A stretch of 64,000 nucleotides of DNA, taken from assembly GCA_965197745.1 (NCBI GenBank), contig CBDANS010000007.1, positions 2,016,001-2,080,000 of the forward strand, read 5' to 3'. A program made the position numbers and the translations under genes. Below the pieces are notes generated by a model. That model had not been told where the DNA came from. It did not search any database and saw only the letters and a program-made list of their open reading frames with translations. Below are positions 4,721-45,159 of the stretch, piece by piece. The DNA comes from Opitutales bacterium (GTDB lineage Bacteria; Verrucomicrobiota; Verrucomicrobiia; Opitutales; PNEW01). How positions within the stretch are numbered: the stretch's first letter is position 1; each line of letters opens with the position of its first letter.

Positions 4721-4732
4721 GCTTACTCAATC

Positions 4733-5494: not shown

Positions 5495-5532
5495 CACGCT
5501 TGGAATTAGCGTTTCCATGTTATTGAAATCCG

Positions 5533-8603: not shown

Positions 8604-8664
8604 TTGACTCAGCATCTTGAAGGTGTCGCTTGCTATTTCAAGATGATCTCTGCATCCTGAAATC

Positions 8665-9960: not shown

Positions 9961-9971
9961 GGGAGTGATTT

Positions 9972-11741: not shown

Positions 11742-11829
11742 GGAGAGATGGCAGAGTGGCCGATCGCGGTAGTCTTGAAAACTATTGAACCGAAAGGTTC
11801 CGGGGGTTCGAATCCCCCTCTCTCCGCCA
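11742..11829 (+). tRNA. tRNA-Ser (anticodon TGA)
   Basis: GGAGAGA/TCTCTCC acceptor stem, anticodon loop CTTGAAA, long variable arm, GGTTCGAATCC T-loop, encoded CCA. Confidence 0.97.
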
Positions 11830-12972: not shown

Positions 12973-13020
12973 TAGTTACCTTAGGAGAGTTGGTATCAGA
13001 GATAAAAAGGGGTCAGGCTG

Positions 13021-14590: not shown

Positions 14591-14735
14591 GGGTCAGGCT
14601 GTGTATTTATAGATTTTTCAGGATTCTAATTTAAAACGGACCGTTGAACCAACATATATTACTGAAATCGTTAGTATTCAAATACTGGGTGAAAAGTATT
14701 CTAAGTTGTAATCTATAAATAGACAGCCTGACCCC
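14591..14735. repeat. ~145-bp MITE-like palindromic element, family A copy 1
   Basis: TIR GGGTCAGGCTGTGTATTTATAGAT / ATCTATAAATAGACAGCCTGACCC; homologs at 26036 and 40952. Confidence 0.85.
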
Positions 14736-14759
14736 TTTTTCTTCCCTTCTATATTAAAC

Positions 14760-24385: not shown

Positions 24386-24462
24386 AATAGGTTATCTTCC
24401 ATTAAAATATTAAACTCATAGATATTATTTCATTCAGAGGTGGATATAAAGGGGTCAGACTG

Positions 24463-26035
24463 GAATGGCGTTAAGATAAGGGTGGTTTAGGATGATAAAA
24501 GCCTTTGTTTTTTCGTGAAGCAGAGACGGTCATCATGGCTCGTGGATGAGTCAATCGTTGGAAAGGTATAGGTCTACGTTTGAGGACTCTTGGTTCGTAT
24601 CGGAAGGGACGTAGGGGGACCGATTCGAGGGCAATGAGGTGTATCATCTCGTCAATGACAGATCGTTGGGCTCTGGGATTAAACCGGGTGGCCGCGAGCG
24701 CACTTTGATATTGGCGGAGGGTGTCAACAGCCCCCTTGAAGCTTAGCCGGGAGAGGTCGCGGTGGAAGGCACTGGCAGCTTGCTGCAAAAGAGCGCGGAT
24801 GAGAGATTGTAGGCGATGGCAAACATCGCAATCTCTTTGCGCACGAGAGCGACCGAGCGAGAGCGCAGGATCTCCATCCCCATGGTGGTTTTGATGTGGC
24901 GAAAGTAAAGCTCCACTGCCCAGCGCCGATAGTATAATTCTCCGAGATCGTGGTGGGAGTATTGGTGAGGATCGCTCAAGGTAGTCACGAGGTCTACGCT
25001 ATGGGCGCGGAAACCTTTGATGAAAATGAAAATCTTCACCAGCCGTACGGGGATCTCATCAGGGATTTGCCGCCACTGCTCGCGACTGAAGCCGAAGACA
25101 TTTTGCGGCTTCTTCCACATGATCAGCCGGTCATACCTACCCAAGGACCTGCCCTGACGAAAGTCGCTTCTTCGTTGCTGATGCAAACGCATGACCGCTT
25201 CAGCACCGCGGCCTTTAAGCAGGGCAATATTGAGGTAAGAGCAAAATCCCCGGTCGGCAAGGACCACATCACCCTTTTGAAAAAATCCGATCATGCCCCG
25301 CAACAGCACACTGTCATGATGCCTTAGTGAGGACTCCATCCAGTGTAAAAGCGCCCCACTGGCTAAAGAAAAACAGCCCACCAGCTTCATCACCGGAAAG
25401 CCGCAGCCGCTTCGTTGCTGCGAAGGCTGTGGGTAACACCTCTGCAAGCACGGCGTATCGGCGGTGGCGATACCCGTGCCGTCGACCACTTTTACCTCGT
25501 GACCTTTCCACCGTTGATCGTCGGTCACTCTCCCGGCCACCTCTTCACTGATCGCTTCATGGATCCCGTGCAGGTCTTGCACCAACAGCCGTTGCCTCGC
25601 CTGACAGTAGGCCGAGGCCGTTCCTTTAGCCAACTTCAGCCCCTTCATGCTGCAATAGCTCTGGAGCTTGCGCACCACTTCCCGGCAGGCAGTCCGTGGT
25701 GAGAGCACTTGGAACAAAAATGCCCAGAAGGTCACGTTTTGGCTGAACAATCTCCGCCGGCTGTTAGCCCCTCGAGGCTTCCGGTGTAAATACTTTTGCG
25801 GCACCCACTGCCCGAAGATATCCGATAGCTCGGAAAGACTTGACCGCCGTATTTCTACCAGCTTACCCTCCATCTGTGCAAGGGCTGTTCGGGGAGCACG
25901 ACCGAACAGGACCTGATTAAATCCTGGAAAATAACGAGTTAAGTTTTGTTTTTGCATGCTCGTTAGGGTAGCTCTCCAACGGTCCCTGTACAAGCATCTA
26001 TTGCACTCATTCTATCCCTTATCTTAACGCCATTC
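24463..26035 (-). mobile_element. IS4-family element, copy 2 (frameshifted)
   Basis: Near-identical to copy 1; same IRs; +2 nt (CT) after the YNL codons; flanks GGGTCAGACTG / GGGTCAAGCTG. Confidence 0.95.
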
Positions 26036-26179
26036 GGGTCAAGCTGTATATTTATAGATTTTCAGATTCAAAATTAAAACGGCCAGTTGAATCAACATAA
26101 AATACTGAATCCGTAAGTATTCAAATACCGTGTGAAAACGTATTCTAAGTTGAGATCTATAAATACACAGCCTTACCCC
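26036..26179. repeat. MITE-like family A copy 2
   Basis: Aligns end to end with 14591-14735. Confidence 0.85.
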
Positions 26180-26283
26180 TCTTTCATCTGTTAAGTATTA
26201 CTTATTGCCATCCTCCTCGCTATAGTCGAGACTCGGTAAAAACCTGTTGGCTAATCTAATGTTAGCCTTCTCAAAGAAGAGGT

Positions 26284-28431: not shown

Positions 28432-28715
28432 CTTATGGACGAGTCAATAGGTCAAAACTTCAAAAGGTCAAAAAGGAAATGCGATAAGCTCACGCGTGTG
28501 TTCAGTAGGTTAACAGTTCAAGGTTCAGGGTTCAGGGTTCTGAAGTTAGGTGGAATATTGGAAGGATGGAAGTTTGGATGATTGTGGAGTCAACCGAATG
28601 ACCTGTTCTGAGTATTACCTATGGATATTCTCAATCTTCCATTATTCCATCCTTCCACTTATTCCCCGATCCGCCAGTTCGATAACGATCCCGATTTCGA
28701 TTTCGATTGTTTTAC

Positions 28716-28812
28716 GCTCAACAAATAATTCTAAAGTTCTGAATAAATCGCGTATCGGGATAATATTACCAAGGTTAACATCTGAGAGCAAAATAAAAAG
28801 AGGTTGACCTCT
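28716..28812 (-). promoter_or_regulatory. attI-like module 1
   Basis: Minus strand ends TTAGAAT-TATTT-GTTGAGC; homologous to the six other modules. Confidence 0.6.
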
Positions 28813-28855
28813 TTTGACTATGTTAGCCTACCAGTGCTAAAAGTGAGGCACGCCG

Positions 28856-29136
28856 TTAAGCGTTGCCCCCACTGTCTGGGTAAGATTTTGTTTCATCGGG
28901 ATCGAAATCGCTATCGCTATCGGGATCGATCTCATTGGTTCTGTAAATTGCCCGCTCATCTTCAACAGAATAGCCCCGTCCGCCAAGTCGGCTTAGCATC
29001 GCGGCCATCCGGTCTAACTCGCTCTTTCGCCCCTCGCTCGTCTTTTCTTCCAAGGCCTTTCGGACGCTTCATAAACCCAAGCGACATAGTCGATGGATAG
29101 ACCGTAAACGTACAGCTTCTCGTGTCCCAATGTCAT
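28856..29136 (-). pseudogene. Four-helix bundle protein (23S rRNA IVS / Avd-like), internally deleted
   Basis: MTLGHEKLYVYGLSIDYVAWVY joined out of frame to KSELDRMAAMLSRLGGRGY; CGATNN hexamer repeats at both ends. Confidence 0.8.
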
Positions 29137-29185
29137 CTTACTTCGATTCCGATAACGATCCCGATTTCGATTTGGATTGTTTTAC

Positions 29186-29284
29186 TCACAACAAGAAATT
29201 CTTAAGTTCTGAATAATTAGCGTATCGGGATAATGTTACCAAGGTTAACATCTGAGAGCAAAATAAAAAGGAGGTGACGACTTC
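29186..29284 (-). promoter_or_regulatory. attI-like module 2
   Basis: TAAGAAT-TTCTT-GTTGTGA; near-duplicate of module 1. Confidence 0.6.
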
Positions 29285-29715
29285 TAGCTATTCGTGGGAG
29301 CGTTCTTCTTTTGTTGTGATTGCATTACTACGTACCCTCCAAGATAGGAGAAAAAAAGGGCTGAGATCAGCATTCCAATTGGGACCCAAAGTACTGCTGG
29401 AAAAACGATGTAGAATGTATAAAAAGCCCAAAGGGAAAGCACCATACCGATCGCACTAGTTACCCAGATTATTTTTTCTTTGGCAACTCTAGCACCGAAG
29501 ACACCCCCTGAAAATGCACCCAGAGCGAGTCCAAATAGTGTCGTGAGCCAAGTACTTGTTGAGACGGAAGCCACCCGCTGCGCCACAGCTTCTGGGGTTG
29601 CCGGGTCCATCAACTCAGGTGGAGTCGGATTTATGGTATTAGCAATTATCCCGACCATAAAAAAAGTAATGGTGCCGACAACCGCACCTAGTATCACCGC
29701 AAGACTTTTTCGCAT
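29284..29715 (-). CDS. Four-TM membrane protein (cassette-like)
   Basis: Four hydrophobic segments; begins just after a degenerate attC. Confidence 0.8.
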   Translation of the reverse strand: MRKSLAVILGAVVGTITFFMVGIIANTINPTPPELMDPATPEAVAQRVASVSTSTWLTTLFGLALGAFSGGVFGARVAKEKIIWVTSAIGMVLSLWAFYTFYIVFPAVLWVPIGMLISALFFSYLGGYVVMQSQQKKNAPTNS

Positions 29716-29737
29716 ATGTTTTTCCTTTTATAAAACT

Positions 29738-29795
29738 GCATGCCCTCGCGGATCACGGGCGGCTGGAAGCCGTCGCGTGCATTCGGTTATTGTCC
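29738..29795 (-). other. Degenerate attC-like site
   Basis: Minus strand GGACAAT-N5-AATGCACGCGACGGC..GCCGCCCGTGAT-CCGCGAG-GGCATGC; 58 bp, directly after a stop codon. Confidence 0.6.
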
Positions 29796-29805
29796 AATCC
29801 CTGTT

Positions 29806-31038
29806 TTATAGCTGATCGCTCTTCGCGTCGGCATAGGGCAATGGGTACAAAGGCTTCAGTTCGTCGTGTCTGTCTGAGATCGCAGGGATCGCAACGGGTC
29901 TATGTTCCTCCTTCGATGTCCTCACGGCGATCGCACCGGCACACGTCCGCGCTGCCTCGTATACGTTGATCTGGGACATGCGGTCCTCCTCAATGGATGA
30001 CAGTAGGTCGAGCCAACTGAAGAACTCGACGCCGTCATGGCCCACCTTGTCAGCCATTTCCTGCGTCACGCCGGCCGGTAGGGAGATAGGTGGGACTTCG
30101 ATTGATTTCATCTCATAGGATCCATGGTAGGGACTTGCGCCCGCGCCGTCATCCACCAGGCATCCGTAAAGACCGGTGCTGTCCGACGGCGCTGGCAGGT
30201 AGCCGTAAAGACCGGTGCTGTCCGACGGCGCTGGCAGGTAGCCGGTGCATTCGATCGTGCCCTTGGTTCCCCATGCAGACTTGACGAGCTCTTTGTACGG
30301 GCGACGGGCTGCCTTTGAACATTGCACTCTGGCAATCGCACCTGAAGCCGACCTGAAAAGAGCAACGTCATGGTCGTCCACGTTACGCATGGGCAAATTC
30401 ATGCGGTTGCCATAGGCAAACACCTCCGTGAATTGTTCACCGAGGAACCATCGGGCCGTATCCACAGCATATATACCCGCACCTGCGGGGATCGGTTCCT
30501 GTGCCTTGACGCCATAACCCATACGGAAATTCGCTTTGTCCAACAGGTTTCCACCTACCTGCTGACGTATGTCCTGCAGATACTCACAGATTACATAGTA
30601 GATGTCCCCGAGGCTGCCCTCGTCAATGAGTTGCTTCATCCTGACTGATTCCGGTATCCACCTGTCGGGGCAATCCATCTGAACCTTCAGGTTCTTGCGT
30701 TCGGCCATTCGGATAATCTTCCAGAGCCTGTCCATCGACTCGTTCTCCATCGGCACTTCAACCATGACATGTTTGCCTGAATCAAGAGCCGCCAGGACTG
30801 CTGGCCCATGCAAATGACACGGCGTGCACACACAGACAATATCAATATCCGGATTCGATAGAAGATCATCGTAGTCTCTTGTCGCTGTCTTTATTCCTGC
30901 TTCCTGAGACACCTTCTGCAAAACGTCCTCATTGACATCGCAAAGTGCAATGCACTCAGCATGCTCCAGGAACTCGATCGTCCGCAGATGGTCCCTTCCA
31001 TGGCCCAAGCCAGCCAGTCCGATCTTATAGTTTCTCAT
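29806..31038 (-). CDS. Gfo/Idh/MocA oxidoreductase with an in-frame 13-aa duplication
   Basis: IGLAGLG, DIVCVCTPCHLH, GKHVMVEVP; GYLPAPSDSTGLY twice. Confidence 0.9.
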   Translation of the reverse strand: MRNYKIGLAGLGHGRDHLRTIEFLEHAECIALCDVNEDVLQKVSQEAGIKTATRDYDDLLSNPDIDIVCVCTPCHLHGPAVLAALDSGKHVMVEVPMENESMDRLWKIIRMAERKNLKVQMDCPDRWIPESVRMKQLIDEGSLGDIYYVICEYLQDIRQQVGGNLLDKANFRMGYGVKAQEPIPAGAGIYAVDTARWFLGEQFTEVFAYGNRMNLPMRNVDDHDVALFRSASGAIARVQCSKAARRPYKELVKSAWGTKGTIECTGYLPAPSDSTGLYGYLPAPSDSTGLYGCLVDDGAGASPYHGSYEMKSIEVPPISLPAGVTQEMADKVGHDGVEFFSWLDLLSSIEEDRMSQINVYEAARTCAGAIAVRTSKEEHRPVAIPAISDRHDELKPLYPLPYADAKSDQL

Positions 31039-31083
31039 TTTACGCGATCTCCCTTGCCTGTGAGCACCTGTGTGTTCGTCCTT

Positions 31084-31172
31084 GTACAACAAGTAATTCT
31101 AAGGTTCTGCATATTGAGTAGGGTATAATATTGTCAAGGTTGAAACTGTTATGTACATAGCCTGAACCCTTT
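31084..31172 (-). promoter_or_regulatory. attI-like module 3
   Basis: TTGACA-N18-TATGCA-GAACC-TTAGAAT-TACTT-GTTGTAC; distal end GGGTTCAGGCT. Confidence 0.65.
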
Positions 31173-31175
31173 TAA

Positions 31176-31880
31176 TTATTCTCCTGCGAACTTGATGCGG
31201 ACTTCGTCCAGAATGATGTAGCCCTCTGGAAGTTGCGACTGCCAAACTGGGTAGTCATGACCCGCTCTAAGAATATGGAGGTCACCGCCAGGGGATCCCA
31301 TAGGAACGACATTCAAAGGGAACATCACCAACATAATGTTGACATCGACGTCTCGCAATACCTGTTCCAATGGTTTGACACCGTACGAGTCAGTGCGGTC
31401 ATGACGAGATCCCAGAGCGGTCCATTGCGACGGGTCAGATACGAAGGTCAGCGTTTGCTCGGTCCACTGCTCGGACACCTGAAGGGCTTGGCCGGTCAAG
31501 AGCCAGCCACTGCAAATGCCCTCAACCCCACCCTGCATCAACAGCACAAGTTCTGCATCACGCTTCAGCAGTTCTCCTTTGAGGCGCACGGTCATTTTCG
31601 CATGGGTAAAGTCCGTTGGATAGCCCCCCGCGATAAAGCGACTGGGGCCACCAGCTTCTTTAATCGCTTCTGTTTCCGGACCATATGTGGACAAACAGGC
31701 CAGCATGTGCATATAGCCTGCTCCGGGGGGTGCGTGGTTATAGTCAATCCACCAGGGACTGCGAGCTGAGACTCTGTTATTTCCAAATTCGAGCGGTTTG
31801 GGTCCCTCGAAGTTGCTGATCCACGCATACCAGCCTCCGTGACCATCCTCGAACGTCTCAATGTATTCCGTCTGACTCAT
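31176..31880 (-). CDS. Hypothetical protein
   Basis: ORF with GGGAG RBS before ATG 31880; contains PWWIDYNHAPPGAGY. Confidence 0.75.
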   Translation of the reverse strand: MSQTEYIETFEDGHGGWYAWISNFEGPKPLEFGNNRVSARSPWWIDYNHAPPGAGYMHMLACLSTYGPETEAIKEAGGPSRFIAGGYPTDFTHAKMTVRLKGELLKRDAELVLLMQGGVEGICSGWLLTGQALQVSEQWTEQTLTFVSDPSQWTALGSRHDRTDSYGVKPLEQVLRDVDVNIMLVMFPLNVVPMGSPGGDLHILRAGHDYPVWQSQLPEGYIILDEVRIKFAGE

Positions 31881-31934
31881 TAGATAAACACTCCCTACTC
31901 TCAACGGTTCTGACTTCCAGCGCTCCGCTCTTTC

Positions 31935-32012
31935 GACTGACAAATGATCCTAAAGTTCTGCATATTGAGTTGGAGGAAAATGTTGTCAAGATTGCGGTGG
32001 CATAAGGGGTCA
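31935..32012 (-). promoter_or_regulatory. attI-like module 4
   Basis: TTGACA-N19-TATGCA ... TTAGGAT-CATTT-GTCAGTC; GGGGTCA at distal end. Confidence 0.6.
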
Positions 32013-32028
32013 TTCTCACCACTGCGAT

Positions 32029-32595
32029 CTACAACAACGCGCCAGTCGCTTTAACCAGCGCATCTGACAGGACCTCGTTTCCAAATTCGGTCATGTGGCA
32101 TCCGTCCTCAATGAGGCATTTCGTGTAGTCATTACTCATAATGACCTCATGTAGATCGTTCACCGGTATCCCTTCGACCTGCACGATCTCGAGCGCAGCA
32201 TCGTTGTAATCCTTAAGCTCGGCATCTTCCCTGATCTGCCACTCGTTCATCGATTTATCCTGCTCGGACCTGTAAAGTGGCGTGGTGGTGGCCCAGATCA
32301 TCTGTGTCTTCTCAAGCTCTTTGACTCTTGCAATTACCCGTTTGAGGGAGAGCCGGTACTGAGGAAGCAGAATTTGGTGGTCCCCGTCGGCCATCGGGAT
32401 GCAATCGTGTATGCCAAAGTTAAGATGAACCACGTCCGGTTCTTGGTCGACTACCCATTCCTGAATATGATCAAGAACCCAGAGACTGTGTCGGCAATTC
32501 TCCTTAGGCCCCCATACCTCAGCTTTCTTGCACTTCTTTGTCACCAGTGGTTGATACCCCTTCCGAATCGAGTCCCCGATTAACACGACTTTCAT
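32029..32595 (-). CDS. SGNH/GDSL hydrolase
   Basis: LIGDSI, NFGIHD, DGCH. Confidence 0.9.
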   Translation of the reverse strand: MKVVLIGDSIRKGYQPLVTKKCKKAEVWGPKENCRHSLWVLDHIQEWVVDQEPDVVHLNFGIHDCIPMADGDHQILLPQYRLSLKRVIARVKELEKTQMIWATTTPLYRSEQDKSMNEWQIREDAELKDYNDAALEIVQVEGIPVNDLHEVIMSNDYTKCLIEDGCHMTEFGNEVLSDALVKATGALL

Positions 32596-32614
32596 TTCAT
32601 CTCCTTGCTTTCAC

Positions 32615-32704
32615 GCATAACAAATGATTCTAAAATTCTGTATATTGAGTAGGGGTATAATACTGTCAAGGTTGACAACTGATGTAACACAGCCTGATCC
32701 CTTT
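32615..32704 (-). promoter_or_regulatory. attI-like module 5
   Basis: TTGACA-N19-TATACA ... TTAGAAT-CATTT-GTTATGC, then AAGGAG and ATG; distal end GGGATCAGGCTGTG. Confidence 0.7.
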
Positions 32705-32715
32705 ACTCATTTTTC

Positions 32716-35150
32716 CTAAACGGGATAAACATATTTATCACCCAGAAATAAATGAATGAAATCTCTCATTCTGGTCCACCCCTCAGTATATGGTTTAACA
32801 TATGTTTCCTTCCAATATACCCGACACATAAACTCTAAACAATACATGCATGTAATAGCTTCACTCATAAAACGATATTTATCGTTATATGAATCTAAAA
32901 TCCCATAACCCTTTAAAAAAGAACAAAGATTTTCTTGGATGCAATTATTAGTCCAACCATCAATACACCATTGAAGTATTACACCTGCAATCTCCATCTG
33001 TGGTGCAGGGCCTGAACCGCAGGACGGCCAATCAATAACAGCACTAATATTACCATTCTTACCCAATAAAAAATTTAATAAATTACATACAAGATCTCCA
33101 TGAATTAATTTCGGCTCAAAATCATATTGGGCTAATTCATCTAATAATGCTAATATGCTAAAACTTTGCTTAGCAGATAACACCCCTTTGGATTCCAGCA
33201 ACTCAAAGTGATCGGACCCCGTATTTCGTATCAAATTTTAAGTGAGAGAACTACCGGGTGTTAATGGTTTTAGGATTGATGTATATGAGAGATCTTGGCG
33301 CAGTGAGGGCGTAGCCCGAACGCGGCCAAGAGCGGAAAGGAATGTGACAAACTCTTGTGGGCTTTTAAAGCCTAATCGACTGTGGGGATGTTCATTGTTA
33401 TAGGTCTGACGCCATTGTTCTATTAGCACTTGCGCTTCAGCCACGCTGAGCAACACTTCAGGGTTCAAACACTCATCGCGTAAGCGGTTGTGAAACGACT
33501 CGATGAAACCGTTTTGCCAGGGACTGCCCGGATCGATATATATCGCCTTGATCTTTTTGTCGGACAACCACTGCTGCACCTGATGAGCAATGAATGGCTT
33601 CGCATGTCGTCGCTTCGCTCCTCGGAACACTGCCGTTGTCACTGCGGATATAGCTAGGAACTCCCTCTTCATCGATGGTTTCGCTGAGTACCGAGAGAAC
33701 ATCGGTTGAGGTGAGCTGTCGAGCTACCCGGATGCGTAAACATTTACGCGTATATGTCTTCGCTTCGCTTGAGTGTCGTCGCTTTCAGCTCCTCGGTACA
33801 TCGATCAAGGTCATCATCTTTAGCATACCGCCATTGTCTGTACGATCATGGACAAAGTCCCAGGACCAGACGTGATTGCGACCGGTTGCTTTAGTAGGGA
33901 GCCCAGTAGAGATCCCCTGACGGTGTCTACGCTTTTTTGGTGGCTTTACCTGTAAGCCCGAAGAACGTCGCACTGCCTGTACAAATTTCCTGCTTGCCGC
34001 CCAACCTTCTTTCACCAGCAAGGCACGAATGCGCCGGTAACCGTAACGGGGATGTTCCCAGGACAAGGTCAAAATCCGCTCGGCCAATTGCTGAGCCTTC
34101 TTACTGGCCTGCTTGGGTCGGTAGCTGTACGTTGACCAACTGAGGCTGAGATAAGCACAAGCCCTCTAAAACGAGCACAGCCCCTTCTCAGCCGCATCTT
34201 TTACTGCTCGCTTCTTCTGCTTTGGGCTCACCATTTTTTTGAGAGCGTTTCCTCCAACACCCGAAGCTTGAGCATTTGATCAGCGAGCATCTTCTTCAGC
34301 TCCGTATTCTCCTTTTCCAGCTCTTTAAATCGCTTCGCATCAGCCAGCTCCAAGTTGCCATACTTTTTGCCCCAGCGATAGAAGGTCTGTTCACTTAGGT
34401 TGTTGCCGTGGCAGACTTCCTGCACGGTTTTGCCCGTATCGGGCTGCCGCAGTATTGCTATGATCTGTTCTGTTGTATATCTTTTTCTTTTCATTGAGGT
34501 TATCTGTTTATCCCGATAACCTCTCTCTGTTAATGATACCATTTTTGGGGGTCACTCCAAAAGTCAATTCGAGTGATATAGGAACGCACAAAGTCTCCCC
34601 AATCTCCATATTCAAAACGAGAATCTTCTAAAATAAAACTATCCACCCAATTTTTGGGCCCTCCTCCAAAGCTATCAGTTGATATTTGATTAATCTGTGC
34701 AGCAATACGTCCAACATTCTCTAAAAAGTCCAAACCTTCATCCTTGTATTCTGGGTAGAAGTATTTAGTGCATTTTTCCATGCTAAAATACATCCCATGC
34801 AATCCAACCTCAGGGTTCTGGTCTGAACTCCATTCCATGCAGAAATAGCTAAATTCTTCACCACTTTCAAGCTTACCGGTTCCAATTATCTCTGGAAATA
34901 CAGATAAGACAGGAACATCTTTATGAACTATTTGGTGCGCCCAAAGTTGTTTACCAACAACACTCCGACAATAAGCAGAGGTGATTGTATGAGAGTCTGT
35001 ATAATTCTGATTAAGTTTTATTGCGTACTTATTACCCTTACTTTCTACAAAAACAACATCATTTATAGAACCAAAAACAATAGCTCCTTCGAATAATTCT
35101 GGATGCTTACTGGGTAGTTCTTTCTCAAAAAATCTTTTGAATTTACACAT
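32716..35150 (-). pseudogene. Aminoglycoside-phosphotransferase/kinase-like gene split by IS3
   Basis: N-part (YAIK, MEW) at 34560-35150 and C-part (LIHGDL, VIDW) at 32716-33208 rejoin in frame as RIDFELLES when the IS and one DR are removed; AT-rich. Confidence 0.85.
33209..34559 (-). mobile_element. IS3-family element, degraded
   Basis: IRs TGATCGGACCCC / TGGAGTGACCCC, 4-bp DR AAAG; OrfA MKRKRYTTEQI; OrfB pieces YGYRRI, WSWDF, PGSPWQNGFIESFH. Confidence 0.93.
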
Positions 35151-35159
35151 TATTTCTTG

Positions 35160-35216
35160 GTCGAATGTGCCGGTGAGCGACGGCGATCAGCCGTCCGCTC
35201 CACTGGCTGGTTATTA
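35160..35216 (-). other. attC-like site
   Basis: Minus strand TAATAAC-CAGCC-AGTGGAGCGGACGGC..GCCGTCGCTCACC-GGCAC-ATTCGAC; 57 bp, extra-helical bases present. Confidence 0.75.
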
Positions 35217-35237
35217 GATCAATCCCGAAAGTCAAAA

Positions 35238-35297
35238 GGAGTCAGTCTTCGCCATTCGGCAAAAGTAATAAAAATGCCAAGATGCGAGACCTGACCC
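35238..35297. repeat. GG[AG]GTCAG...CTGACCC palindrome
   Basis: GGAGTCAGTCTTCGC ... GCGAGACCTGACCC. Confidence 0.65.
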
Positions 35298-35383
35298 TTT
35301 TGCAATTCGTAACTCATACTGCATAGCGCAAAGCACAGAGGCAGCAGTAAGGTAGTCACAATAGGTGCGTATTGTTATGCATT

Positions 35384-35794
35384 TTACTCAATGAATGCAC
35401 CCATGCTAAGGCGGTCCTCTTTTTTGAACCCCATAGCTTTATAGAAGGTTGCTACTTCAGTATTTGTAGAGCGTATTTGTAGATTAACTTTAATGCAGCC
35501 AAGTTCTTTTAAGGATTGCATTGCATATTTTACGAGCCGCGCACCGGCACCACTACGACGCTGCTCCTTTAGCACCGCAACTGCATACAGCCACCCACGA
35601 TGCCCATCATAGCCAGCCATGCAAGCACCGACTAATTTTCCTTCATGTTCTGCCACAAATATAAGATCGTCGACGGCAAGCTTTGCCTCAATGACAATTG
35701 AAGGTTCATTATGTGGAGGGTCATCGGGAAAGACAGTATTCCAAAGTTCAATCAATGAGCTTTTATCTGTGTCTTGATATTTCCGTATATTCAT
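35384..35794 (-). CDS. GNAT acetyltransferase (YpeA-like), gene cassette
   Basis: MAGYDGHRGWLYAVAV, GCIKVNLQIR; bounded by ATTATGC upstream and GCATAAC just after the stop. Confidence 0.92.
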   Translation of the reverse strand: MNIRKYQDTDKSSLIELWNTVFPDDPPHNEPSIVIEAKLAVDDLIFVAEHEGKLVGACMAGYDGHRGWLYAVAVLKEQRRSGAGARLVKYAMQSLKELGCIKVNLQIRSTNTEVATFYKAMGFKKEDRLSMGAFIE

Positions 35795-35808
35795 AACTTC
35801 CTCATGAT

Positions 35809-35867
35809 GCATAATGTCGTGGATCAGGCGCGACAATAAACTGACACCTGCATCCTGCTTGTTATGC
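35809..35867 (-). other. attC-like site
   Basis: Minus strand GCATAAC-AAGCA-GGATGCAGG..CCTGATCC-ACGAC-ATTATGC; 59 bp. Confidence 0.8.
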
Positions 35868-35873
35868 GCTTCC

Positions 35874-37175
35874 TTATGCGTAGGCTTGTGTAAGAAGCCT
35901 CATGTTTTCTTCTACTAGCACGTCATCAATATTCTCCGCAAGGATATACGCCCCCATCGCTCTAGCTACCCAGACCTCATACCCGCTGCGGTCCAGGGAC
36001 TCACGAGTAACGAAGTACCCGTTGCTCCCACAGGATGTACTGGCACAAAGCGTGTATTGGGCAGGACTGAGATCACGAAGACGAAGGACGGTTTCAGCAA
36101 ATGGCTCTCCAGGAAATGGCACTATCGCAACCGGGCCGAGGCGAAGAATGACCTGGAGATAGTTCTTTCCGGAGACTGGTGCGACCTGCTGAGCGCTGAC
36201 AACGGCCTGCCAATATTTATATTCACACATACCTTTTCCGTATTCGTTCCGGTGAGGTTCAGCCTCTGCAAGATTACGACTGGCTTCATCCTCCGAGGGC
36301 AAAGACCTGTAGGGTAATGGGTATGCTCCGGTCGTGATTCCCAGCTCCACGATACGGAATTCCTTAATCGCGCGAATGGCTCGCATCGCATCCATCCCCG
36401 CCCGAGTGCCGACCTCCTGCAACGCTGCTTGTCCGTCTCCGACAGCACCGAGGAAATTGCTCCGGGGAGCTATGTCGCCCACCGCACCGTTGACAAAAAG
36501 CACCGGAGCGCCAGTAAGGTCTTCGACCCGATCGATCATCACACCAGGCCAATCGCGGGAAATTGCCCTGCTCTTGCTTGTAAGAACGGTGGGATGTGCC
36601 CCGTAGTGAATCAGGGTTGCCAGAGGACCGTCTGCGCTCTGAAAGCAGACTACGGTCATTTCCGGATCGTAGATCCCCCAGCGGTTGTACCCCAACCCAA
36701 CTGAGTGGTCAGCCATAATCGCTCTGCGATTTACGCCTACATCACTTTCCGTCATCCCAAAACCGACCTGAATTTTCTTCAGGTTCTGACTGGCTTTCAC
36801 CGCCGCTTTGATGCTCTGGCTTACGACAAGATCGACATAGGTCTCGTCCTTATCGCACCATCCCCAACACGTCATGGTGCAGGGGGCGGAATGCGTCTGA
36901 ATAGTACAGACGACGATGCTGTCCGCGTGTATGCCGGTCTGTTCCTGAATACCCTGCCGAATCGCTTCTACATCGGCGTCTTCAAGAATGCAGATCGTCA
37001 AACTGATCAGGACTGCTGTCGTCTCTCCTTGTTTCAAGACAAGTGCGTTTGCCTGCAATGGGTCGCGGACAGACTCCGCTTTCCGGTCTGGATCAGGATA
37101 ACCCATCAGCAGAAAACCGAGTTCGGGCGTGATGTCGGTTCGAGCGAAGCCGCCGAAAAGTTGTAGCTCTTTCAT
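35874..37175 (-). CDS. Neutral/alkaline ceramidase-like protein
   Basis: GFARTDITP, DPLQANALVL, QTHSAP, YGAHP, ISRDWPG, NGAVGDI, PGEPF. Confidence 0.8.
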   Translation of the reverse strand: MKELQLFGGFARTDITPELGFLLMGYPDPDRKAESVRDPLQANALVLKQGETTAVLISLTICILEDADVEAIRQGIQEQTGIHADSIVVCTIQTHSAPCTMTCWGWCDKDETYVDLVVSQSIKAAVKASQNLKKIQVGFGMTESDVGVNRRAIMADHSVGLGYNRWGIYDPEMTVVCFQSADGPLATLIHYGAHPTVLTSKSRAISRDWPGVMIDRVEDLTGAPVLFVNGAVGDIAPRSNFLGAVGDGQAALQEVGTRAGMDAMRAIRAIKEFRIVELGITTGAYPLPYRSLPSEDEASRNLAEAEPHRNEYGKGMCEYKYWQAVVSAQQVAPVSGKNYLQVILRLGPVAIVPFPGEPFAETVLRLRDLSPAQYTLCASTSCGSNGYFVTRESLDRSGYEVWVARAMGAYILAENIDDVLVEENMRLLTQAYA

Positions 37176-37648
37176 ATTATTCTTTCTGATTGTATAACGC
37201 CTCCAGAAGGTTGCTCCCGCGCAGCACGCCGAAACAGCCAGGCCGATCCAACAAACAGCGCGACGAAGAACCCCGTCAGGATTAAGATATCCCGCGGCCA
37301 GATCGGCCCCGTAGAGCCCCACCCCGCGATCAGCGCGATTGCACCGACCAACGCATGAGCGAGCGCCGTCGCGAACAACGTGCGTGTCATTCCCTGTGGC
37401 TGAAAACGCGCGATGATGGCACCGAAGAAACCGACGGCGAGCACCCCATAATACATCATGTTGGCGTCGTCGTCCGCAGTCCCGATGATGCCAACAGCAC
37501 CGTTCACCCAGAAGAGGAGGAATGCTGCCGTAAGTGCAAGGCCGACGGCGGATTTATAAGCGGTATTGTCAGGCTTCCTCGCTTTAAGGACCATGAAGAC
37601 GACGATGAACGCTGCCGCGAGCACGATAAGGGGCAAGAATTTAAGCAT
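37172..37648 (-). CDS. Membrane protein (cassette-like)
   Basis: FLLFWVNGAVGIIG, ARFQPQGM; five TM segments; the 3' end runs into the GTTATAC core of the next unit. Confidence 0.8.
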   Translation of the reverse strand: MLKFLPLIVLAAAFIVVFMVLKARKPDNTAYKSAVGLALTAAFLLFWVNGAVGIIGTADDDANMMYYGVLAVGFFGAIIARFQPQGMTRTLFATALAHALVGAIALIAGWGSTGPIWPRDILILTGFFVALFVGSAWLFRRAAREQPSGGVIQSERII

Positions 37649-37700
37649 TTTGCCTATTTGTTCTTTGATTTCTGTGAGTTAGCGACACCTTAAGATAACG

Positions 37701-37763
37701 GTATAACGTCGCGGTTAACTTACCGGCGCGTAAGCGACGGTTAAGTTGTACCGTTTGTTAGAC
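37701..37763 (-). other. attC site (best-conserved)
   Basis: Minus strand GTCTAAC-AAAC-GGTACAACTTAACCG..CGGTAAGTTAACC-GCGAC-GTTATAC; 63 bp. Confidence 0.85.
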
Positions 37764-37777
37764 AATCGTTGCCCGAG

Positions 37778-38026
37778 TTATTCGAGTGAAATCACAACTT
37801 TCTCATTCTTCTTGTGTTCCTCGACCTCTACCAGAGTCCCATTGATCTCCGGATTCATCGAAAGCTTGGTGAGCTCGTCGAGATCAATCCCATTGCTTTG
37901 AAGTGCTGCAGCCGCCTGCTTCGGAATTAGTTTGGATGCGACCTCGAGGACGCTACCGGGAATAGTGACAGTCGTCTTCGGTTGCGCTTCGCCAACCTTG
38001 AAAACTCGAATCTTCAATTCAGCCAT
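37778..38026 (-). CDS. Small hypothetical protein, gene cassette
   Basis: AGGAG RBS; lies between module 6 and the attC at 37701-37763. Confidence 0.8.
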   Translation of the reverse strand: MAELKIRVFKVGEAQPKTTVTIPGSVLEVASKLIPKQAAAALQSNGIDLDELTKLSMNPEINGTLVEVEEHKKNEKVVISLE

Positions 38027-38054
38027 GATTCTCTCCTTTCCGCATATCTTTTCT

Positions 38055-38130
38055 ATCTATCAAATGATTCTAAAGTTCATTATATTCGCGTATGGGAAAA
38101 TGTTGTCAAGGTGGCAAAAGGGGTCAGGTT
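38055..38130 (-). promoter_or_regulatory. attI-like module 6
   Basis: TTGACA-N19-TATAAT ... TTAGAAT-CATTT-GATAGAT; GGGGTCAGG at distal end. Confidence 0.65.
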
Positions 38131-38167
38131 ATTAATGCTAAAAATGAGGCACGTCGTTAGGTGTTGC

Positions 38168-38485
38168 CTACACTGTCTGGTTGGGATTTTGTTTCATCGG
38201 ATCGAAATCGCTATCGCTATGGGGATCGATCTCATTGGTTCTGTAGATTGCGCGCTCATCTTCACCAGAATAGCCCCGCGCGATCTCAAAATACCTTCTT
38301 CGGTCCGGTTCAGATGTTTTTCCATTACCTTCCGCAATGTTCAGAGGAATCGACTGGCTTGCCCGTAGCCACTGGTCGCGGGCGTGACGATGAACGCCAT
38401 TCAGCCTTTCGGACCCTTCATAAACCCAGCTGACATAGTCGATGGAAAGACCGTAAACGTCCAGTTTCTCGTGTCCCAATGTCAT
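38168..38485 (-). pseudogene. Four-helix bundle protein, internally deleted
   Basis: HEKLDVY, DQWLRASQSIPLNIAEGNG, YFEIARG joined directly to YSGEDER, so the last helices are missing. Confidence 0.85.
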
Positions 38486-38534
38486 CTTAGTTCGATTCCG
38501 ATAACGATCCCGATTTCGATTTGGATTGTTTTAC

Positions 38535-38632
38535 TCACAACAGGTAATTCGAAATTTCTGAATAATTCGAGTATCGGGATAATGTTTTCGAAGTTAACAA
38601 CTGGGAGCAAAATAAATAGAAGCTGACCCATT
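38535..38632 (-). promoter_or_regulatory. attI-like module 7
   Basis: TTCGAAT-TACCT-GTTGTGA; distal CTGACCC; paralog of modules 1 and 2. Confidence 0.6.
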
Positions 38633-38658: not shown

Positions 38659-39354
38659 TCACTCGGCAGGGAAGAAATGAGAGACAATGCCGATCCGCGG
38701 CTGATAGGTCTGGTTACCGGACGAACCGTGAATGCATAAGCTGTGATGAAATGCCGCGTCGCCTGGCGCTAAGCGGGCATACACTACCTTGTCCGAAGTG
38801 GGATTCGATACCTCGAAGGCACGGTGAATTTCATACTTGCCAATAGCATTTGTATGTTGATTAAGACCCGTCCGGTGGCTACCTGTCACATATCCCACAG
38901 AACCGTTACTCGGATTGCACGCCGTCAACGCGATCCAACAGGTAATGCCAGCTTCACTCGCACTTTGACCTTGCCAATAGTGACCGTCCTGGTGCCATTG
39001 CACCCTGGCGCTGTATTGTGCCGGTTTGGCAATCACCTGCCCGTAGGAAAACCGCAACGGATAACCTGTCAGATACTCAGCTAATTGCTGTGCCCGGCGA
39101 CGGTAGGGATGCTCAGCTAATTTCGGGATCGGACCCTCGTCGCTGATACTGATCTGCTGTTGAAGGCCGTGTTTAATATCCGTATTCCCTTCCTCTCCGA
39201 AACCCAAATGCCCAAGTTCACGATCCAAGGCGGGGCGCAACAGTTCTAAGAGTTCAATCGCTTCATCATGACTGAGAAGCTTTTGGTAAAATACAAAACC
39301 ATTGTCCAGATACCGTTGGCGATGGGCTGGATCAGGATTGGCAACCGGGCTCAT
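38659..39354 (-). CDS. PhyH-family dioxygenase
   Basis: WHQDGHYW, CWIAL, GSH, PGDAAFHHSLCIHGS. Confidence 0.9.
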   Translation of the reverse strand: MSPVANPDPAHRQRYLDNGFVFYQKLLSHDEAIELLELLRPALDRELGHLGFGEEGNTDIKHGLQQQISISDEGPIPKLAEHPYRRRAQQLAEYLTGYPLRFSYGQVIAKPAQYSARVQWHQDGHYWQGQSASEAGITCWIALTACNPSNGSVGYVTGSHRTGLNQHTNAIGKYEIHRAFEVSNPTSDKVVYARLAPGDAAFHHSLCIHGSSGNQTYQPRIGIVSHFFPAE

Positions 39355-40877: not shown

Positions 40878-40951
40878 TTCAATTGCAAATTGATGTGGAT
40901 GTCGTCCCGCAACCGCGGGACTCGGTACGGAATGAGAAAAGGTGGCAAAAT

Positions 40952-41095
40952 GGGTCAGGTTGTGTATTTATAGATTTTCAGGATTCGAAATTAAATCGGA
41001 CAGTTGAATCAACAATAAATTACTAATTTCGTTAGTATTCAAATACAGATTGAAAACGTATTCTAAGTTGAATTTATATATACACAGCCTGACCT
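40952..41095. repeat. MITE-like family A copy 3 (no IS inserted)
   Basis: Aligns with the 14591 and 26036 copies. Confidence 0.85.
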
Positions 41096-41196
41096 CTTCT
41101 AAAATTCTCGCATGCATTGGCAGATTCTCTTTCTTTTGATCAACATATCGGGTGCTTAATCTCTTTCCCCCCTTCTATCTCTTCCATGCTCATATA

Positions 41197-42349: not shown

Positions 42350-42695
42350 CTTTCAAGTCCTCTTATTGCAGCTCTTTAAGCCTCAGTGATGACCTGCTCA
42401 TCCCACAGATTTGCTGTATCCACCCTTCCATTTTCTATGACGGATTTTCTACCTTTGTGGGGTTAGACTTAATGTCAACATCTTCCAAGGTATATATCGT
42501 CGCGATATTATTGTGTTTAAGTTTTGCAGCTACCTCTGTTTCTCGCGAAGTGCAGTGTCCATGAGTTTTACAGCTTACTGCAGTAGACATCCTTGTAAAA
42601 GAGATACGGGTCGACGCAGAATAAAACTGGTTTACAAACTGGTTGATAAGGCGTACATTTTCCGTATGAAGTCAGAATAAAAAGGGGTCAGGCTG

Positions 42696-44267: not shown

Positions 44268-44326
44268 GGGTCAGGCTTCGCATCTAAGCATTTTTATTTT
44301 TTTGCTGATTTGCGAAGCCTGACCCC
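44268..44326. repeat. 59-bp GGGGTCAG palindrome, family C copy 1
   Basis: GGGTCAGGCTTCGCA ... TGCGAAGCCTGACCCC; near-identical direct copy at 44967-45026. Confidence 0.85.
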
Positions 44327-44354
44327 TTTTCCACCGTGTGCTGATTTGCACCGG

Positions 44355-44939: not shown

Positions 44940-44966
44940 GATTTCAATAGAGAATCAATTTCTAAA

Positions 44967-45026
44967 GGGGTCAGGCTTCGCATCTAAGCATTTTTATTTT
45001 TTTGCTGATTTGCGAGGCCTGACTCC
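44967..45026. repeat. Family C palindrome copy 2 (empty IS4 target)
   Basis: Direct repeat of 44268-44326. Confidence 0.85.
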
Positions 45027-45159
45027 TTTTGGTTTTTCCAATAAGCTTTTGATATAAAATTGTTTGCTTGAAATTTACGTTCCAAATTAATAGGCGCAAT
45101 GTTCTTGAATTACGCGCGGCTCCTGTCTATTGCTCTGTAATCTCAAAAAGGGATCACAC

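What the first reader, a model, noticed from the sequence alone, without database searches (positions are those of the whole stretch)
28716..38632. Integron-like array with seven repeated attI/promoter modules and no integrase
Seen: seven homologous ~80-100 bp modules (28716, 29186, 31084, 31935, 32615, 38055, 38535), all on the minus strand. Similarity between unrelated neighbours stops at a core: TTAGAAT-N5-GTTGAGC, TAAGAAT-N5-GTTGTGA, TTAGAAT-N5-GTTGTAC, TTAGGAT-N5-GTCAGTC, TTAGAAT-N5-GTTATGC, TTAGAAT-N5-GATAGAT, TTCGAAT-N5-GTTGTGA. A gene or gene leader starts right after each core. Four modules carry a perfect TTGACA 47-48 bp upstream of the core. Four attC-like hairpins lie between genes in the same orientation. 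Established: an L box-N5-GTT geometry with an upstream promoter is how an integron attI/Pc is built, and an integron normally has one attI next to intI. Inference: the attI+promoter unit has been multiplied into several independent cassette-capture and expression points, served by an integrase in trans or since lost. I know of no description of this layout but cannot verify novelty.
Basis: partly seen in the sequence, partly recalled or inferred. Interest (0 to 1): 0.9.

Follow-up and report, generated by a model that had tools for sequence, protein, structure and literature searches.

The report
Repeated attI-like modules, no integrase
An uncultured Opitutales bacterium stores accessory genes as integron-style cassettes, but instead of one docking site beside an integrase it has about twenty copies of a promoter-like module that ends exactly at the cassette joining point, and no integron integrase gene.

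Summary
All seven minus-strand modules are at the stated places. They belong to a family of 21 copies in this genome. Among 61 genomes of the order searched, the family occurs only in this bacterial family.

Similarity stops right after GTT. Over 35 distinct downstream contexts, 30 end in GTT, followed by R-K-R-Y, which resembles the integron core GTTRRRY.

Cassettes that follow a module begin with a hexamer complementary to the R'' box of their own attC. This holds for 8 of 33 contexts, against 31 of 1024 controls. Several of these attC sites are textbook hairpins. The module's G|TT therefore is, or was, an integron-type crossover point.

The modules themselves do not fold, so they are not attC sites.

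No integron integrase was found in any of the four genomes of the family, one of them a single contig. In the order, 92 of 401 genomes have one.

Promoter activity is untested. No RNA runs are listed, and the consensus scan did not call the modules as promoters.

Gene content differs between genomes exactly at modules and at attC sites.

Verdict: a new variant of the integron/CALIN theme.

The parts
38533..38608 (-). module m38535 (4HB subtype, TCGAAA in place of TTGACA), ends ...CCTGTT|GTGAGT; followed by the 4HB gene leader
38056..38124 (-). module m38055 (TTGACA), end mutated to GAT in this genome (GTTAGAC in G001); followed by the 82-aa cassette
32613..32683 (-). module m32615 (TTGACA), ends GTT|ATGC; followed by the SGNH hydrolase gene
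31933..32001 (-). module m31935 (TTGACA), end mutated to GTC; followed by a gene of unknown family (mechanical ORF 255 aa, 234 aa from its ATG)
31084..31147 (-). module m31084 (TTGACA), ends GTT|GTAC; followed by the GFO/IDH/MocA cassette. In G001 the orthologous module is followed by a 4HB remnant instead
29184..29259 (-). module m29186 (4HB subtype, TTGGTA); followed by a 4HB gene remnant. The core module is missing at the orthologous place in G002
28714..28789 (-). module m28716 (4HB subtype, TTGGTA), preceded by a terminator-like hairpin (28815-28796); followed by a truncated 4HB leader; last unit of the array
37701..37763 (-). attC1 of the 82-aa cassette: R'' GTCTAAC ... R' GTTATAC; canonical fold on the bottom strand
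   Evidence: z -3.35, 0 of 200 shuffles
35809..35867 (-). attC2 (R'' GCATAAC ... R' ATTATGC, G>A at the crossover base). Homology with G001 ends at the R' box (the shared TTA leaves the last 3-4 nt undecided)
35307..35380 (-). attC3, behind the GNAT gene (R'' GCATAAC ... R' GTTACGA); weak fold
29730..29792 (-). attC4, behind the GFO gene (R'' CAATAAC ... R' GTTTTAT); weak fold
38659..39354 (-). PhyH-family dioxygenase gene, last gene before the first module; conserved with G001
38168..38485 (-). 4HB gene (PF05635, 23S rRNA-intervening-sequence protein). It aligns over 146 columns to the 145-aa copy on C6 (gaps not examined; not shown to be a deletion). Leader and tail form a 32-nt inverted repeat
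37778..38026 (-). 82-aa gene of no Pfam family (cassette with attC1)
35874..37648 (-). membrane protein (158 aa) plus neutral-ceramidase-like gene, one cassette ending in attC2
35384..35794 (-). GNAT acetyltransferase cassette, starts (A)|TTATGC
32716..35150 (-). APH-family phosphotransferase gene split by an IS3-family element (33205-34559); a 73-nt palindromic repeat lies upstream (35235-35308)
32029..32595 (-). SGNH/GDSL hydrolase gene
31176..31880 (-). gene of unknown family (234 aa from its ATG)
29806..31038 (-). GFO/IDH/MocA oxidoreductase gene with a 39-nt tandem duplication (30157-30234)
29284..29715 (-). membrane protein gene (143 aa), starts behind attC4 at G|TTTTAT

Best explanation
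The region is an integrase-less integron cassette array (a CALIN). Many junctions are occupied not by an attC hairpin but by a lineage-specific double-stranded module. The core is about 65-90 nt, or about 130 nt with its upstream hairpin.

The module ends in ...TTTAGAATCACTTG|TT. That G|TT is, or was, the point at which circular cassettes were joined by attC x module recombination, the role that attI plays in an integron.

Upstream of the crossover the module carries a TTGACA-containing, promoter-like stretch. It always points into the next gene, so it probably also drives that gene.

Shown:
- the sharp end of similarity at GTT;
- the RKRY bias after it;
- the complementarity between the first six bases of module-adjacent cassettes and their own attC R'' box;
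- the absence of an integron integrase in the family.

Inferred:
- The joints were made by an integron integrase that was lost or acts in trans. Integrases are common in the order.
- The module is a promoter.
- Much of the present-day reshuffling between genomes runs through homologous recombination between the about 80% identical modules.
- The module arose from the 3' end of the attC-like site of the 4HB cassette, with a promoter-bearing piece inside it.
For: 1. Family and boundary. There are 21 copies in this genome. There are 59 unique copies over four genomes and metagenome contigs, in 36 downstream contexts, 35 of them anchored. Of these 35, 30 end in GTT. After GTT: +1 is a purine in 24 of 30, +2 is G or T in 26 of 30, +3 is a purine in 25 of 30, +4 is a pyrimidine in 25 of 30. 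Information content collapses right after GTT.

2. Cassette logic. For eight cassettes with a recognisable attC, the variable bases of the start hexamer match the reverse complement of the cassette's own R'' at 26 of 32 positions. Only 12 of 40320 permutations reach this. In a blind test, 8 of 33 non-4HB GTT contexts have the exact own-R'' 7-mer at an ORF end, against 31 of 1024 with foreign hexamers. Examples directly behind a module:
- TTCGGC/GCCGAAC (G001, isochorismatase)
- TTAGAC/GTCTAAC (82-aa cassette)
- TTAGAA/TTCTAAC (L015)
- TTAGCG/CGCTAAC (L077)
- TTAGGC/GCCTAAC (L026)
Their attC sites fold as expected: z -2.86, -3.57, -1.79 and -1.66.

3. Equivalence of module and attC ends. The GNAT cassette starts with TTATGC behind attC2 here and behind a module in G002.

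4. Different cargo at the same joint.
- The unknown-family gene plus m31084 is conserved with G001 up to GTT. After it comes GFO here and a 4HB remnant there.
- A PhyH gene plus module is conserved in G000, G001 and contigs L078 and L077, with four different sequences after GTT.
- attC2 homology with G001 ends at R'.

5. Modules are not hairpins. Four of the five modules folded (six folds, one on both strands) are no more stable than shuffles, z +0.26 to +1.09. The fifth gives z -1.51.

6. No integron integrase above the curated cut-off in G000 to G003, including single-contig G001. In the order, 92 of 401 genomes have one.

7. Orientation. 21 of 21 copies point into a same-strand ORF within 300 nt. 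The cargo is typical cassette fare: GNATs, isochorismatase, HAD, methyltransferase, SDR, GFO.

8. From the literature. IntI can insert cassettes at double-stranded genomic GWT sites, and such cassettes are expressed if near a promoter (Loot et al., bioRxiv 10.1101/2022.09.11.507474; abstract and passages read).
Against: - No integrase was found in four genomes. No recombinase lies next to any array; the nearest tyrosine recombinases are about 20 kb or more away.
- The module profile finds nothing beside 12 integron integrase genes of the order. Only about 1.5 kb on each side was held.
- Only 8 of 33 module-adjacent units keep an exact own R''. One of the 8 (L078) lies inside coding sequence without a hairpin and is probably chance. 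Two G000 examples keep the R'' but do not fold (z +0.92 and +1.22).
- Several genes that precede a module (APH, the unknown-family gene, the 143-aa membrane gene, PhyH) have no attC at all.
- Promoter function is not shown. The consensus scan pairs none of the seven TTGACA with a -10 of at least 4 of 6 at 16-18 nt.
- One G001 insertion breaks attC1 in its middle, not at G|TT.
- G002 lacks a core module between flanks that are otherwise homologous.
- The G001 module behind the unknown-family gene has a 3' half identical to the m32615 type. That looks like homologous recombination or conversion, not site-specific exchange.
Confidence: 0.6

Rival explanations
1. PeSL-like portable regulatory repeat only. 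The module is a promoter (with a terminator-like hairpin before it) that acts as a patch of homology. Gene shuffling runs entirely through RecA-type recombination between modules, as between the promoter/stem-loop cassettes of T4-type phages. The GTT is merely the end of the repeat.
For: - Modules are about 80% identical direct repeats in one orientation.
- A deletion or insertion of 7.7 kb between G000 and G001 is bounded by modules.
- The order of two module-linked genes is swapped between the window and G001.
- One G001 module looks mosaic.
- A terminator-like hairpin precedes the 4HB-type modules.
- PeSLs behave in this way (Arbiol et al. 2010, PMC2839356; abstract read).
Against: Homologous recombination cannot create a new module-gene joint. 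It therefore does not explain why 30 of 35 unrelated contexts start at the same base. It does not explain why RKRY follows, or why adjacent cassettes carry an R'' complementary to their own first six bases.
Confidence: 0.15
2. Mobile promoter that targets attC sites. The module body is a small non-autonomous element that inserted into existing attC sites just before R'. I recall such targeting for IS1111-attC elements and group IIC-attC introns. On this reading the G|TT and RKRY belong to the old attC, and the module never captured anything.
For: - In G001, three tandem 4HB units are joined without a module (..TTTTAGCATTA|CTTGTT..). Module-bearing units have about 130 nt between TTTAGCATTA and YTTGTT, and that insert ends in TTTAGAATCA. 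This gives a direct repeat of about 10 nt, like a target duplication.
- Modules sit where attC sites would be, all in one orientation.
- 73-nt palindromic repeats sharing AAAGGGGTCAGG lie next to many modules: 18 of 58 copies have that motif upstream.
Against: - No terminal inverted repeats and no transposase were seen.
- Only 9 of 58 copies keep the 4HB-attC motif upstream.
- The 16 nt before the crossover (TTTAGAATCACTTGTT) are the same in all copies. The attC sites of this array differ there (..CGCGAC|GTT..TTTGC|GTT). The GTT-proximal part therefore travels with the module rather than with the target.
- The direct repeat can equally be the substrate of a deletion.
Confidence: 0.15
3. Plain regulon promoter. 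The module is the shared promoter and operator of a set of co-regulated accessory genes. Similarity ends at GTT because that is about where transcription starts. There is no link to recombination.
For: - TAGAAT lies 5 nt before the GTT. A start at or just after GTT, with a purine at +1, would be normal for a -10 box.
- Single modules stand before ordinary genes in metagenome contigs.
Against: - Conservation is spread over 65 or more nt rather than two hexamers.
- The bias extends to four bases after GTT.
- There is an excess of own-R'' complementarity.
- Presence/absence and cargo differ between close genomes exactly there.
Confidence: 0.05
4. The modules are themselves attC sites of an unusual long class, belonging to the cassette upstream.
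For: - They lie between cassettes and end in GTT.
- Some copies have GTTGTCAA-CC-TTGACAAC, an 8-nt inverted repeat, at the 5' side.
Against: - There is no hairpin. Four of the five modules folded give z +0.26 to +1.09 and minimum free energies of -1.4 to -3.4 kcal/mol (one was folded on both strands). The fifth gives z -1.51.
- The start hexamers of the upstream genes find no complementary R'' in the module (read by eye).
Confidence: 0.03

Closest known systems
Integron platform: attI site with the Pc promoter next to intI
   Same: - A double-stranded site that ends in a GTT-RRRY-like core.
- Cassettes carrying their own attC are joined at G|TT.
- A promoter-like stretch upstream reads into the first cassette.
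   Different: - About 21 copies per genome instead of one.
- No intI beside any copy, nor anywhere in four genomes.
- No sequence likeness to the flanks of 12 intI genes of the same order.
- Integrase binding is untested.
[quoted passage not shown] 2016, PMC4889954; search listing only)
   Same: - A same-strand array of cassettes with attC sites.
- No integrase in the neighbourhood or in the genome.
- IS elements lie in and around the array.
   Different: Most junctions here (7 of 11 in the window) are module junctions, not attC sites. The modules are a repeat family of their own.
attG sites, genomic secondary insertion sites of integron cassettes (Loot et al., bioRxiv 10.1101/2022.09.11.507474; abstract and passages read)
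   Same: - A double-stranded recipient site with a GWT core.
- It lies outside an integron platform.
- Inserted cassettes are expressed if a promoter is near.
   Different: attG sites are scattered single sites with little context. Here one conserved 65-130-nt element carries the site and recurs many times.
Promoter-bearing gene-less cassettes of Vibrio superintegrons (Blanco et al., bioRxiv 10.1101/2023.11.21.568050; abstract read)
   Same: Short non-coding units inside a cassette array that would switch on downstream cassettes.
   Different: Those are ordinary cassettes, each with its own attC, and unrelated to each other. The modules have no attC fold and are one homologous family.
PeSL promoter/stem-loop cassettes of T4-type phages (Arbiol et al. 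2010, PMC2839356; abstract read)
   Same: - A repeated regulatory module between accessory genes, all in one orientation.
- It marks the break points of insertions, deletions and swaps between close genomes.
   Different: - PeSLs work by homologous recombination and have no integron-type core.
- They have no attC-bearing neighbours.
- They are phage elements.

Membership tests
Complete integron | intI gene (tyrosine recombinase with the integron-specific insertion; NCBIfam TIGR02249 above its cut-off) | tested here: not met
   The best match is 80 bits in G000 and 83-84 bits in G001 to G003, against a cut-off of 265. These are Xer-like genes. G001 is a single contig.
Complete integron | one attI next to intI | tested here: not met
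   No intI was found. The module occurs 21 times in G000.
CALIN (attC cluster lacking integrase) | two or more attC sites close together on one strand, no intI nearby | tested here: met
   attC1 and attC2 lie 1.9 kb apart on the minus strand and have the canonical R/spacer/L shape. Cassette start and own R'' are complementary. IntegronFinder's own attC model was not available.
attC site (asked of the four hairpins) | imperfect hairpin with R''/R' (..AAC / GTT..) and an L stem, more stable than chance | tested here: inconclusive
   One of 4 is clearly stable (attC1, z -3.35). Two of 4 have the canonical shape. attC3 and attC4 are weak. RNAalifold on 11 candidate sites gave no consensus because the lengths differ.
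attC site (asked of the modules) | single-strand hairpin | tested here: not met
   Four of the five modules folded (one on both strands) give z +0.26 to +1.09. The fifth gives z -1.51.
attI site (asked of the modules) | crossover at G|TT, with cassettes that carry their own attC joined there | tested here: met
   30 of 35 contexts end in GTT, followed by RKRY. The own-R'' test gives 8 of 33 against 31 of 1024. Textbook attC sites lie behind module-adjacent cassettes.
attI site (asked of the modules) | integrase-binding boxes (L, R, direct repeats) bound by the cognate IntI | not testable with these tools
   There is no cognate integrase, and binding needs an experiment.
Pc-type promoter | transcription start mapped downstream of -35/-10 boxes | tested here: inconclusive
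   TTGACA is present in 4 of 7 modules. The scan finds no -10 of at least 4 of 6 at 16-18 nt from it. No RNA run is listed.
PeSL-like regulatory cassette | repeat of promoter plus terminator stem-loop at the break points of indels between close genomes | tested here: inconclusive
   The break points are met. A terminator-like hairpin was seen only before one 4HB-subtype module, m28716. Promoter function is untested.

The most novel reading that the evidence does not exclude
The module is a self-multiplying, promoter-carrying attI-like site. It was born from the attC end of the small 4HB cassette. It spreads through the array, and each copy becomes an independent point where cassettes delivered from outside are captured and expressed by integrases supplied in trans. 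That would be an integron architecture without a resident integrase and with many docking sites.
Probability: 0.3. Interest if true: 0.85.

Novelty: new variant of a known kind. Interest (0 to 1): 0.7.

Why it matters
Integrons are understood as one integrase, one attI and one promoter, with expression fading along the array. Integrase-less arrays (CALINs) are usually treated as silent debris.

Here a whole bacterial family keeps such arrays. Their junctions are repeatedly occupied by one conserved double-stranded element that both marks an integron-type crossover and looks like an outward promoter.

If the element works as it appears to, it shows how a cassette array can stay expressed and exchangeable without its own integrase. 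It would also give a concrete, testable recipient site for the 'attG' route of cassette spread.

It also ties the enigmatic 23S-rRNA-IVS (four-helix-bundle) genes to cassette biology. These genes behave here as the commonest cassette, and they leave ORF-less derivatives.

Tried and rejected
- **RNA evidence:** no RNA holder is listed among 22 runs, so no transcription start could be read.
- **Read laying on four DNA runs:** only short contigs were laid.
  - One run (X5) has an IS3-free APH allele (joint 33204->34560).
  - The same run has alternative joints at 35812, 29184/38658 and 37196/29143. They could not be interpreted base by base. Parts without cover mean nothing.
- **Genome-wide attC heuristic:** it mostly found palindromic terminator-like repeats and recovered only attC1. 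It was dropped as a census tool. A constrained version on the arrays added a few sites.
- **RNAalifold on 11 attC candidates:** no consensus structure, because MAFFT cannot align sites of different length. No attC covariance model was built.
- **Module profile beside 12 integron integrase genes of the order:** nothing better than E 0.66.
- **Integrase near modules in metagenome contigs:** none among the 27 ORFs scanned from 3 contigs.
- **Search for the 82-aa cassette protein in 401 genomes of the order, to find it inside a real integron:** it occurs only in G000 and G001.
- **The gene before the first module of the array, tested as a possible recombinase:** it is a PhyH-family dioxygenase.
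- **Idea that the core module is a mini-cassette with its own R'' (TGACAAC complementary to GTTGTCA):** no covariation among copies (read). Dropped.
- **Xer/dif-type site in the module:** rejected, because nothing is conserved to the right of GTT.
- **4HB unit's 3' end as a canonical attC:** an L-type stem forms (z -1.0 to -2.2), but R''/R' do not pair in the best fold. Left open.
- **Literature search for mobility of 23S-rRNA-IVS proteins:** nothing relevant was returned.

Full report
**1. What is there**

Reading the minus strand from 39354 down to 28700, with Pfam names, the order is:
- PhyH dioxygenase
- module
- 4HB gene (PF05635, 23S-rRNA-IVS protein)
- module
- 82-aa gene
- attC1
- membrane protein plus ceramidase-like gene
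- attC2
- GNAT
- attC3
- 73-nt palindromic repeat
- APH-family gene, split by an IS3 element
- module
- SGNH hydrolase
- module
- gene of unknown family (mechanical ORF 255 aa, 234 aa from its ATG)
- module
- GFO/IDH/MocA oxidoreductase
- attC4
- 143-aa membrane protein
- module
- 4HB remnant
- module
- truncated 4HB leader

Every gene is on the same strand. Every junction is either a module (7) or an attC-like site (4).

**2. The observation**

The seven modules are real. They appear as the repeat finder family D2 and in alignment A1.

A profile of the seven finds 21 copies in the 4.45-Mb assembly, in five clusters. In each cluster all copies but one (on C6) share one strand.

In the 21-copy alignment the information content is high from about 12 nt before TTGACA through ...CAGAACTTTAGAATCACTTGTT. 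It drops to background at the next base. All 21 copies are followed by a same-strand ORF within 300 nt.

**3. Distribution**

A sequence-only covariance model of the 21 copies was run against 61 genomes of the order. It hits only the four genomes of family f1:
- G000: 21 matches
- G001: 21 matches
- G002: 12 matches
- G003: 2 matches
- the other 57 genomes: none

A pattern scan of one genome per species found the module in several copies only in OY829953.1. That record is titled 'MAG: Opitutales bacterium' and has the length of G001. The other five hits are partial chance matches.

Six of the fourteen metagenome loci hold full modules. Several of them are the same sequence.

G001 has 18-19 modules, all on one strand, within 37 kb. 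That array is syntenic with this window and with the G000 cluster at C7:1.60 Mb.

**4. Are the modules hairpins?**

No. Five modules were folded as single-stranded DNA, one of them on both strands. Four are no more stable than their shuffles (z +0.26 to +1.09). The fifth gives z -1.51. They are not attC sites.

By contrast:
- attC1 folds on the bottom strand into the classical R pairing / unpaired spacer / L stem with bulges (z -3.35; 0 of 200 shuffles as good).
- attC2 has the same shape, with a weak z.
- attC3 and attC4 are poor.

**5. Is the GTT a cassette joint?**

Three independent lines say yes.

(a) *Base bias after GTT.* There are 59 unique copies, giving 36 downstream contexts, 35 of them anchored. 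Of these, 30 end in GTT. The next four bases are R (24/30), G/T (26/30), R (25/30) and Y (25/30), although everything beyond is unrelated. That is the integron core GTTRRRY, with a relaxed second position.

(b) *Complementarity to the cassette's own R''.* In an integron cassette the first six bases (TTRRRY) are the complement of the R'' box of the cassette's own attC, because both come from one site in the circular form.
- For eight cassettes of the window and of G001, 26 of 32 variable positions agree. Only 12 of 40320 permutations do as well.
- In a blind scan of 33 non-4HB contexts, 8 have the exact own-R'' 7-mer at an ORF end. With foreign hexamers the figure is 31 of 1024.
- Of these 8, one (L078) is probably chance, one (G001 41246) keeps only a truncated attC1, and two (G000 C7:50444 and 1605392) keep the R'' but no longer fold.
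- The other four are textbook attC sites with bulged L stems:
  - G001 isochorismatase, TTCGGC/GCCGAAC
  - L015, TTAGAA/TTCTAAC, z -2.86
  - L077, TTAGCG/CGCTAAC, z -3.57
  - L026, TTAGGC/GCCTAAC, z -1.79
- The 82-aa cassette of this window has GTCTAAC as R''. In G001 it starts with GTTAGAC right after the module. Here two substitutions have turned this into GATAGAT.

(c) *The same cassette start behind either kind of site.* The GNAT cassette (75% identity between the two genomes) starts with TTATGC behind attC2 in this window and behind a module in G002.

**6. Cargo differs exactly at these joints**

- Homology with G001 runs through attC2 and ends at its R' box. After it comes GNAT here and a 123-aa ORF there.
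- The unknown-family gene and module m31084 are shared up to GTT. After it comes GFO here and a 4HB remnant there.
- [gene + module] and [module + SGNH] stand in opposite order in the two genomes.
- A PhyH gene with its module is shared by G000 (C7:1601.8k), G001, and contigs L078 and L077. Four different sequences follow the GTT.

Not all differences are clean.
- An extra ORF in G001 replaces the right half of attC1.
- G002 lacks the core of module m29186 between homologous flanks.
- One G001 module has a 3' half of another subtype.

These point to ordinary deletion and to homologous recombination between modules acting as well.

**7. The enzyme**

No integron integrase reaches the curated cut-off in G000 (92% complete, 7 contigs), G001 (one contig), G002 or G003. 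The best matches are the Xer-like pair.

Other tyrosine recombinases exist: 14 PF00589 matches in G000 and 6 in G001. None lies in the window or next to an array.

In the order as a whole, 92 of 401 genomes have an integron integrase above cut-off, in many families but in 0 of 3 other genomes of f1. So integron cassettes circulate in this order. Loss of the integrase, or supply in trans, is plausible.

The module profile finds nothing beside 12 of those integrase genes. Only about 1.5 kb on each side was held. attI sites are known to be integrase-specific, so this says little.

**8. Promoter?**

The module always points into the next gene. Four of seven copies have a perfect TTGACA. A terminator-like hairpin precedes module m28716 of the 4HB subtype.

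But the consensus scan pairs none of the seven TTGACA with an acceptable -10 at 16-18 nt. The best candidates are GAATAT at 17 nt, or TATACA at about 20 nt; TAGAAT lies 5 nt before the GTT (read). No RNA run is listed. Promoter function is an inference.

**9. Origin of the module (inference)**

- The 4HB unit behaves as a cassette.
  - It starts with TTGTGAG or TTGTAAG, behind a module or, once in G001, behind an attC.
  - Near its end it has TCACAAC, the complement of GTTGTGA.
  - It leaves ORF-less derivatives of 220-280 nt that keep both ends.
- In G001, three 4HB units are joined without a module (...TTTTAGCATTA|CTTGTT...). Module-bearing units have about 130 nt between TTTAGCATTA and YTTGTT, and that insert ends in TTTAGAATCA.
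- So the last 16 nt of the module resemble the R'-proximal end of the 4HB attC-like site. The module body is either an insertion with a duplication of about 10 nt, or the substrate of a deletion.
- Only 9 of 58 copies still have the 4HB motif upstream, and 16 of 58 are followed by a 4HB leader.

**10. Comparison with what is known**

- The array passes as a CALIN (Cury et al. 2016, PMC4889954; search listing only).
- The module works like an attI with Pc, but fails membership: there is no intI, and there are many copies.
- It is closest in behaviour to the double-stranded attG sites of Loot et al. (abstract and passages read). It differs in being a conserved, repeated element.
- Promoter-bearing gene-less cassettes (Blanco et al.; abstract read) have their own attC. 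The modules do not.
- PeSLs of T4-type phages (Arbiol et al. 2010; abstract read) are the best analogue for the homologous-recombination side.
- My paper searches returned no description of a repeated attI-like promoter element. This is a limited search, not proof of absence.
- Supplements of the bioRxiv papers are closed and were not seen.

**11. Earlier notes of this scan**

e1-3252611 described the same repeat at C7:1.108 Mb of this genome as a strand-locked joint of a cassette system 'that is not a classical integron, enzyme unknown'.

I re-tested and confirm its restriction to this lineage and the cargo swaps. My data add that the cassettes are of the integron type (own-R'' complementarity, canonical attC sites). 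An integron integrase is therefore the likely maker of the joints.

**12. Verdict**

This is a new variant of the integron/CALIN theme. Interest 0.7.

Noticed in passing
window 35235-35308, 44268-44330, 44964-45035; many copies in G001 (L049-L051): A 73-nt palindromic repeat that starts CAAAAGGGGTCAGG.. and ends ..CCTGACCCCTTTTG. It occurs in either orientation and often lies directly before a module. It looks like a MITE or a bidirectional terminator.
   Followed up: partly
window 13006-14599, 24448-26038, 42681-44276: Three copies of an IS4-family element (416-aa DDE transposase), about 92% identical to a copy inside the G001 array. Each lies next to a repeat of about 150 nt (14592-14743, 26037-26187, 40948-41098).
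   Followed up: partly
window 33205-34559: An IS3-family element splits the APH-family gene, and its own transposase frame is broken into pieces. A contig of run X5 joins 33204 to 34560, so an IS-free allele exists in nature.
   Followed up: partly
window 38201-38232 and 38489-38520: The leader and the acidic-tail coding end of the 4HB gene form a 32-nt inverted repeat (81% complementary). This recalls the stem that brackets 23S rRNA intervening sequences. ORF-less units of 220-280 nt keep both ends (for example G000 C7:1605164-1605392).
   Followed up: partly
window 30157-30234: A 39-nt in-frame tandem duplication (95% identical) lies inside the GFO/IDH/MocA gene.
   Followed up: no
G000 C7:164755, 945540, 1065131, 1087573; C4:136043; G001 C1:3844012, 4329146: A multi-copy family of tyrosine recombinases of about 429 aa is present in all genomes of the family. 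It may belong to a mobile element. None is adjacent to a module cluster.
   Followed up: no
L082 (metagenome contig) 1-10022; L012 5697-7599; window 38659-39354: PhyH-family dioxygenase genes are strikingly frequent around module clusters: five in one 10-kb metagenome contig. A PhyH gene precedes the first module of both G000 arrays.
   Followed up: no
window 11742-11826: A tRNA gene, the only Rfam match in the window at gathering score.
   Followed up: no
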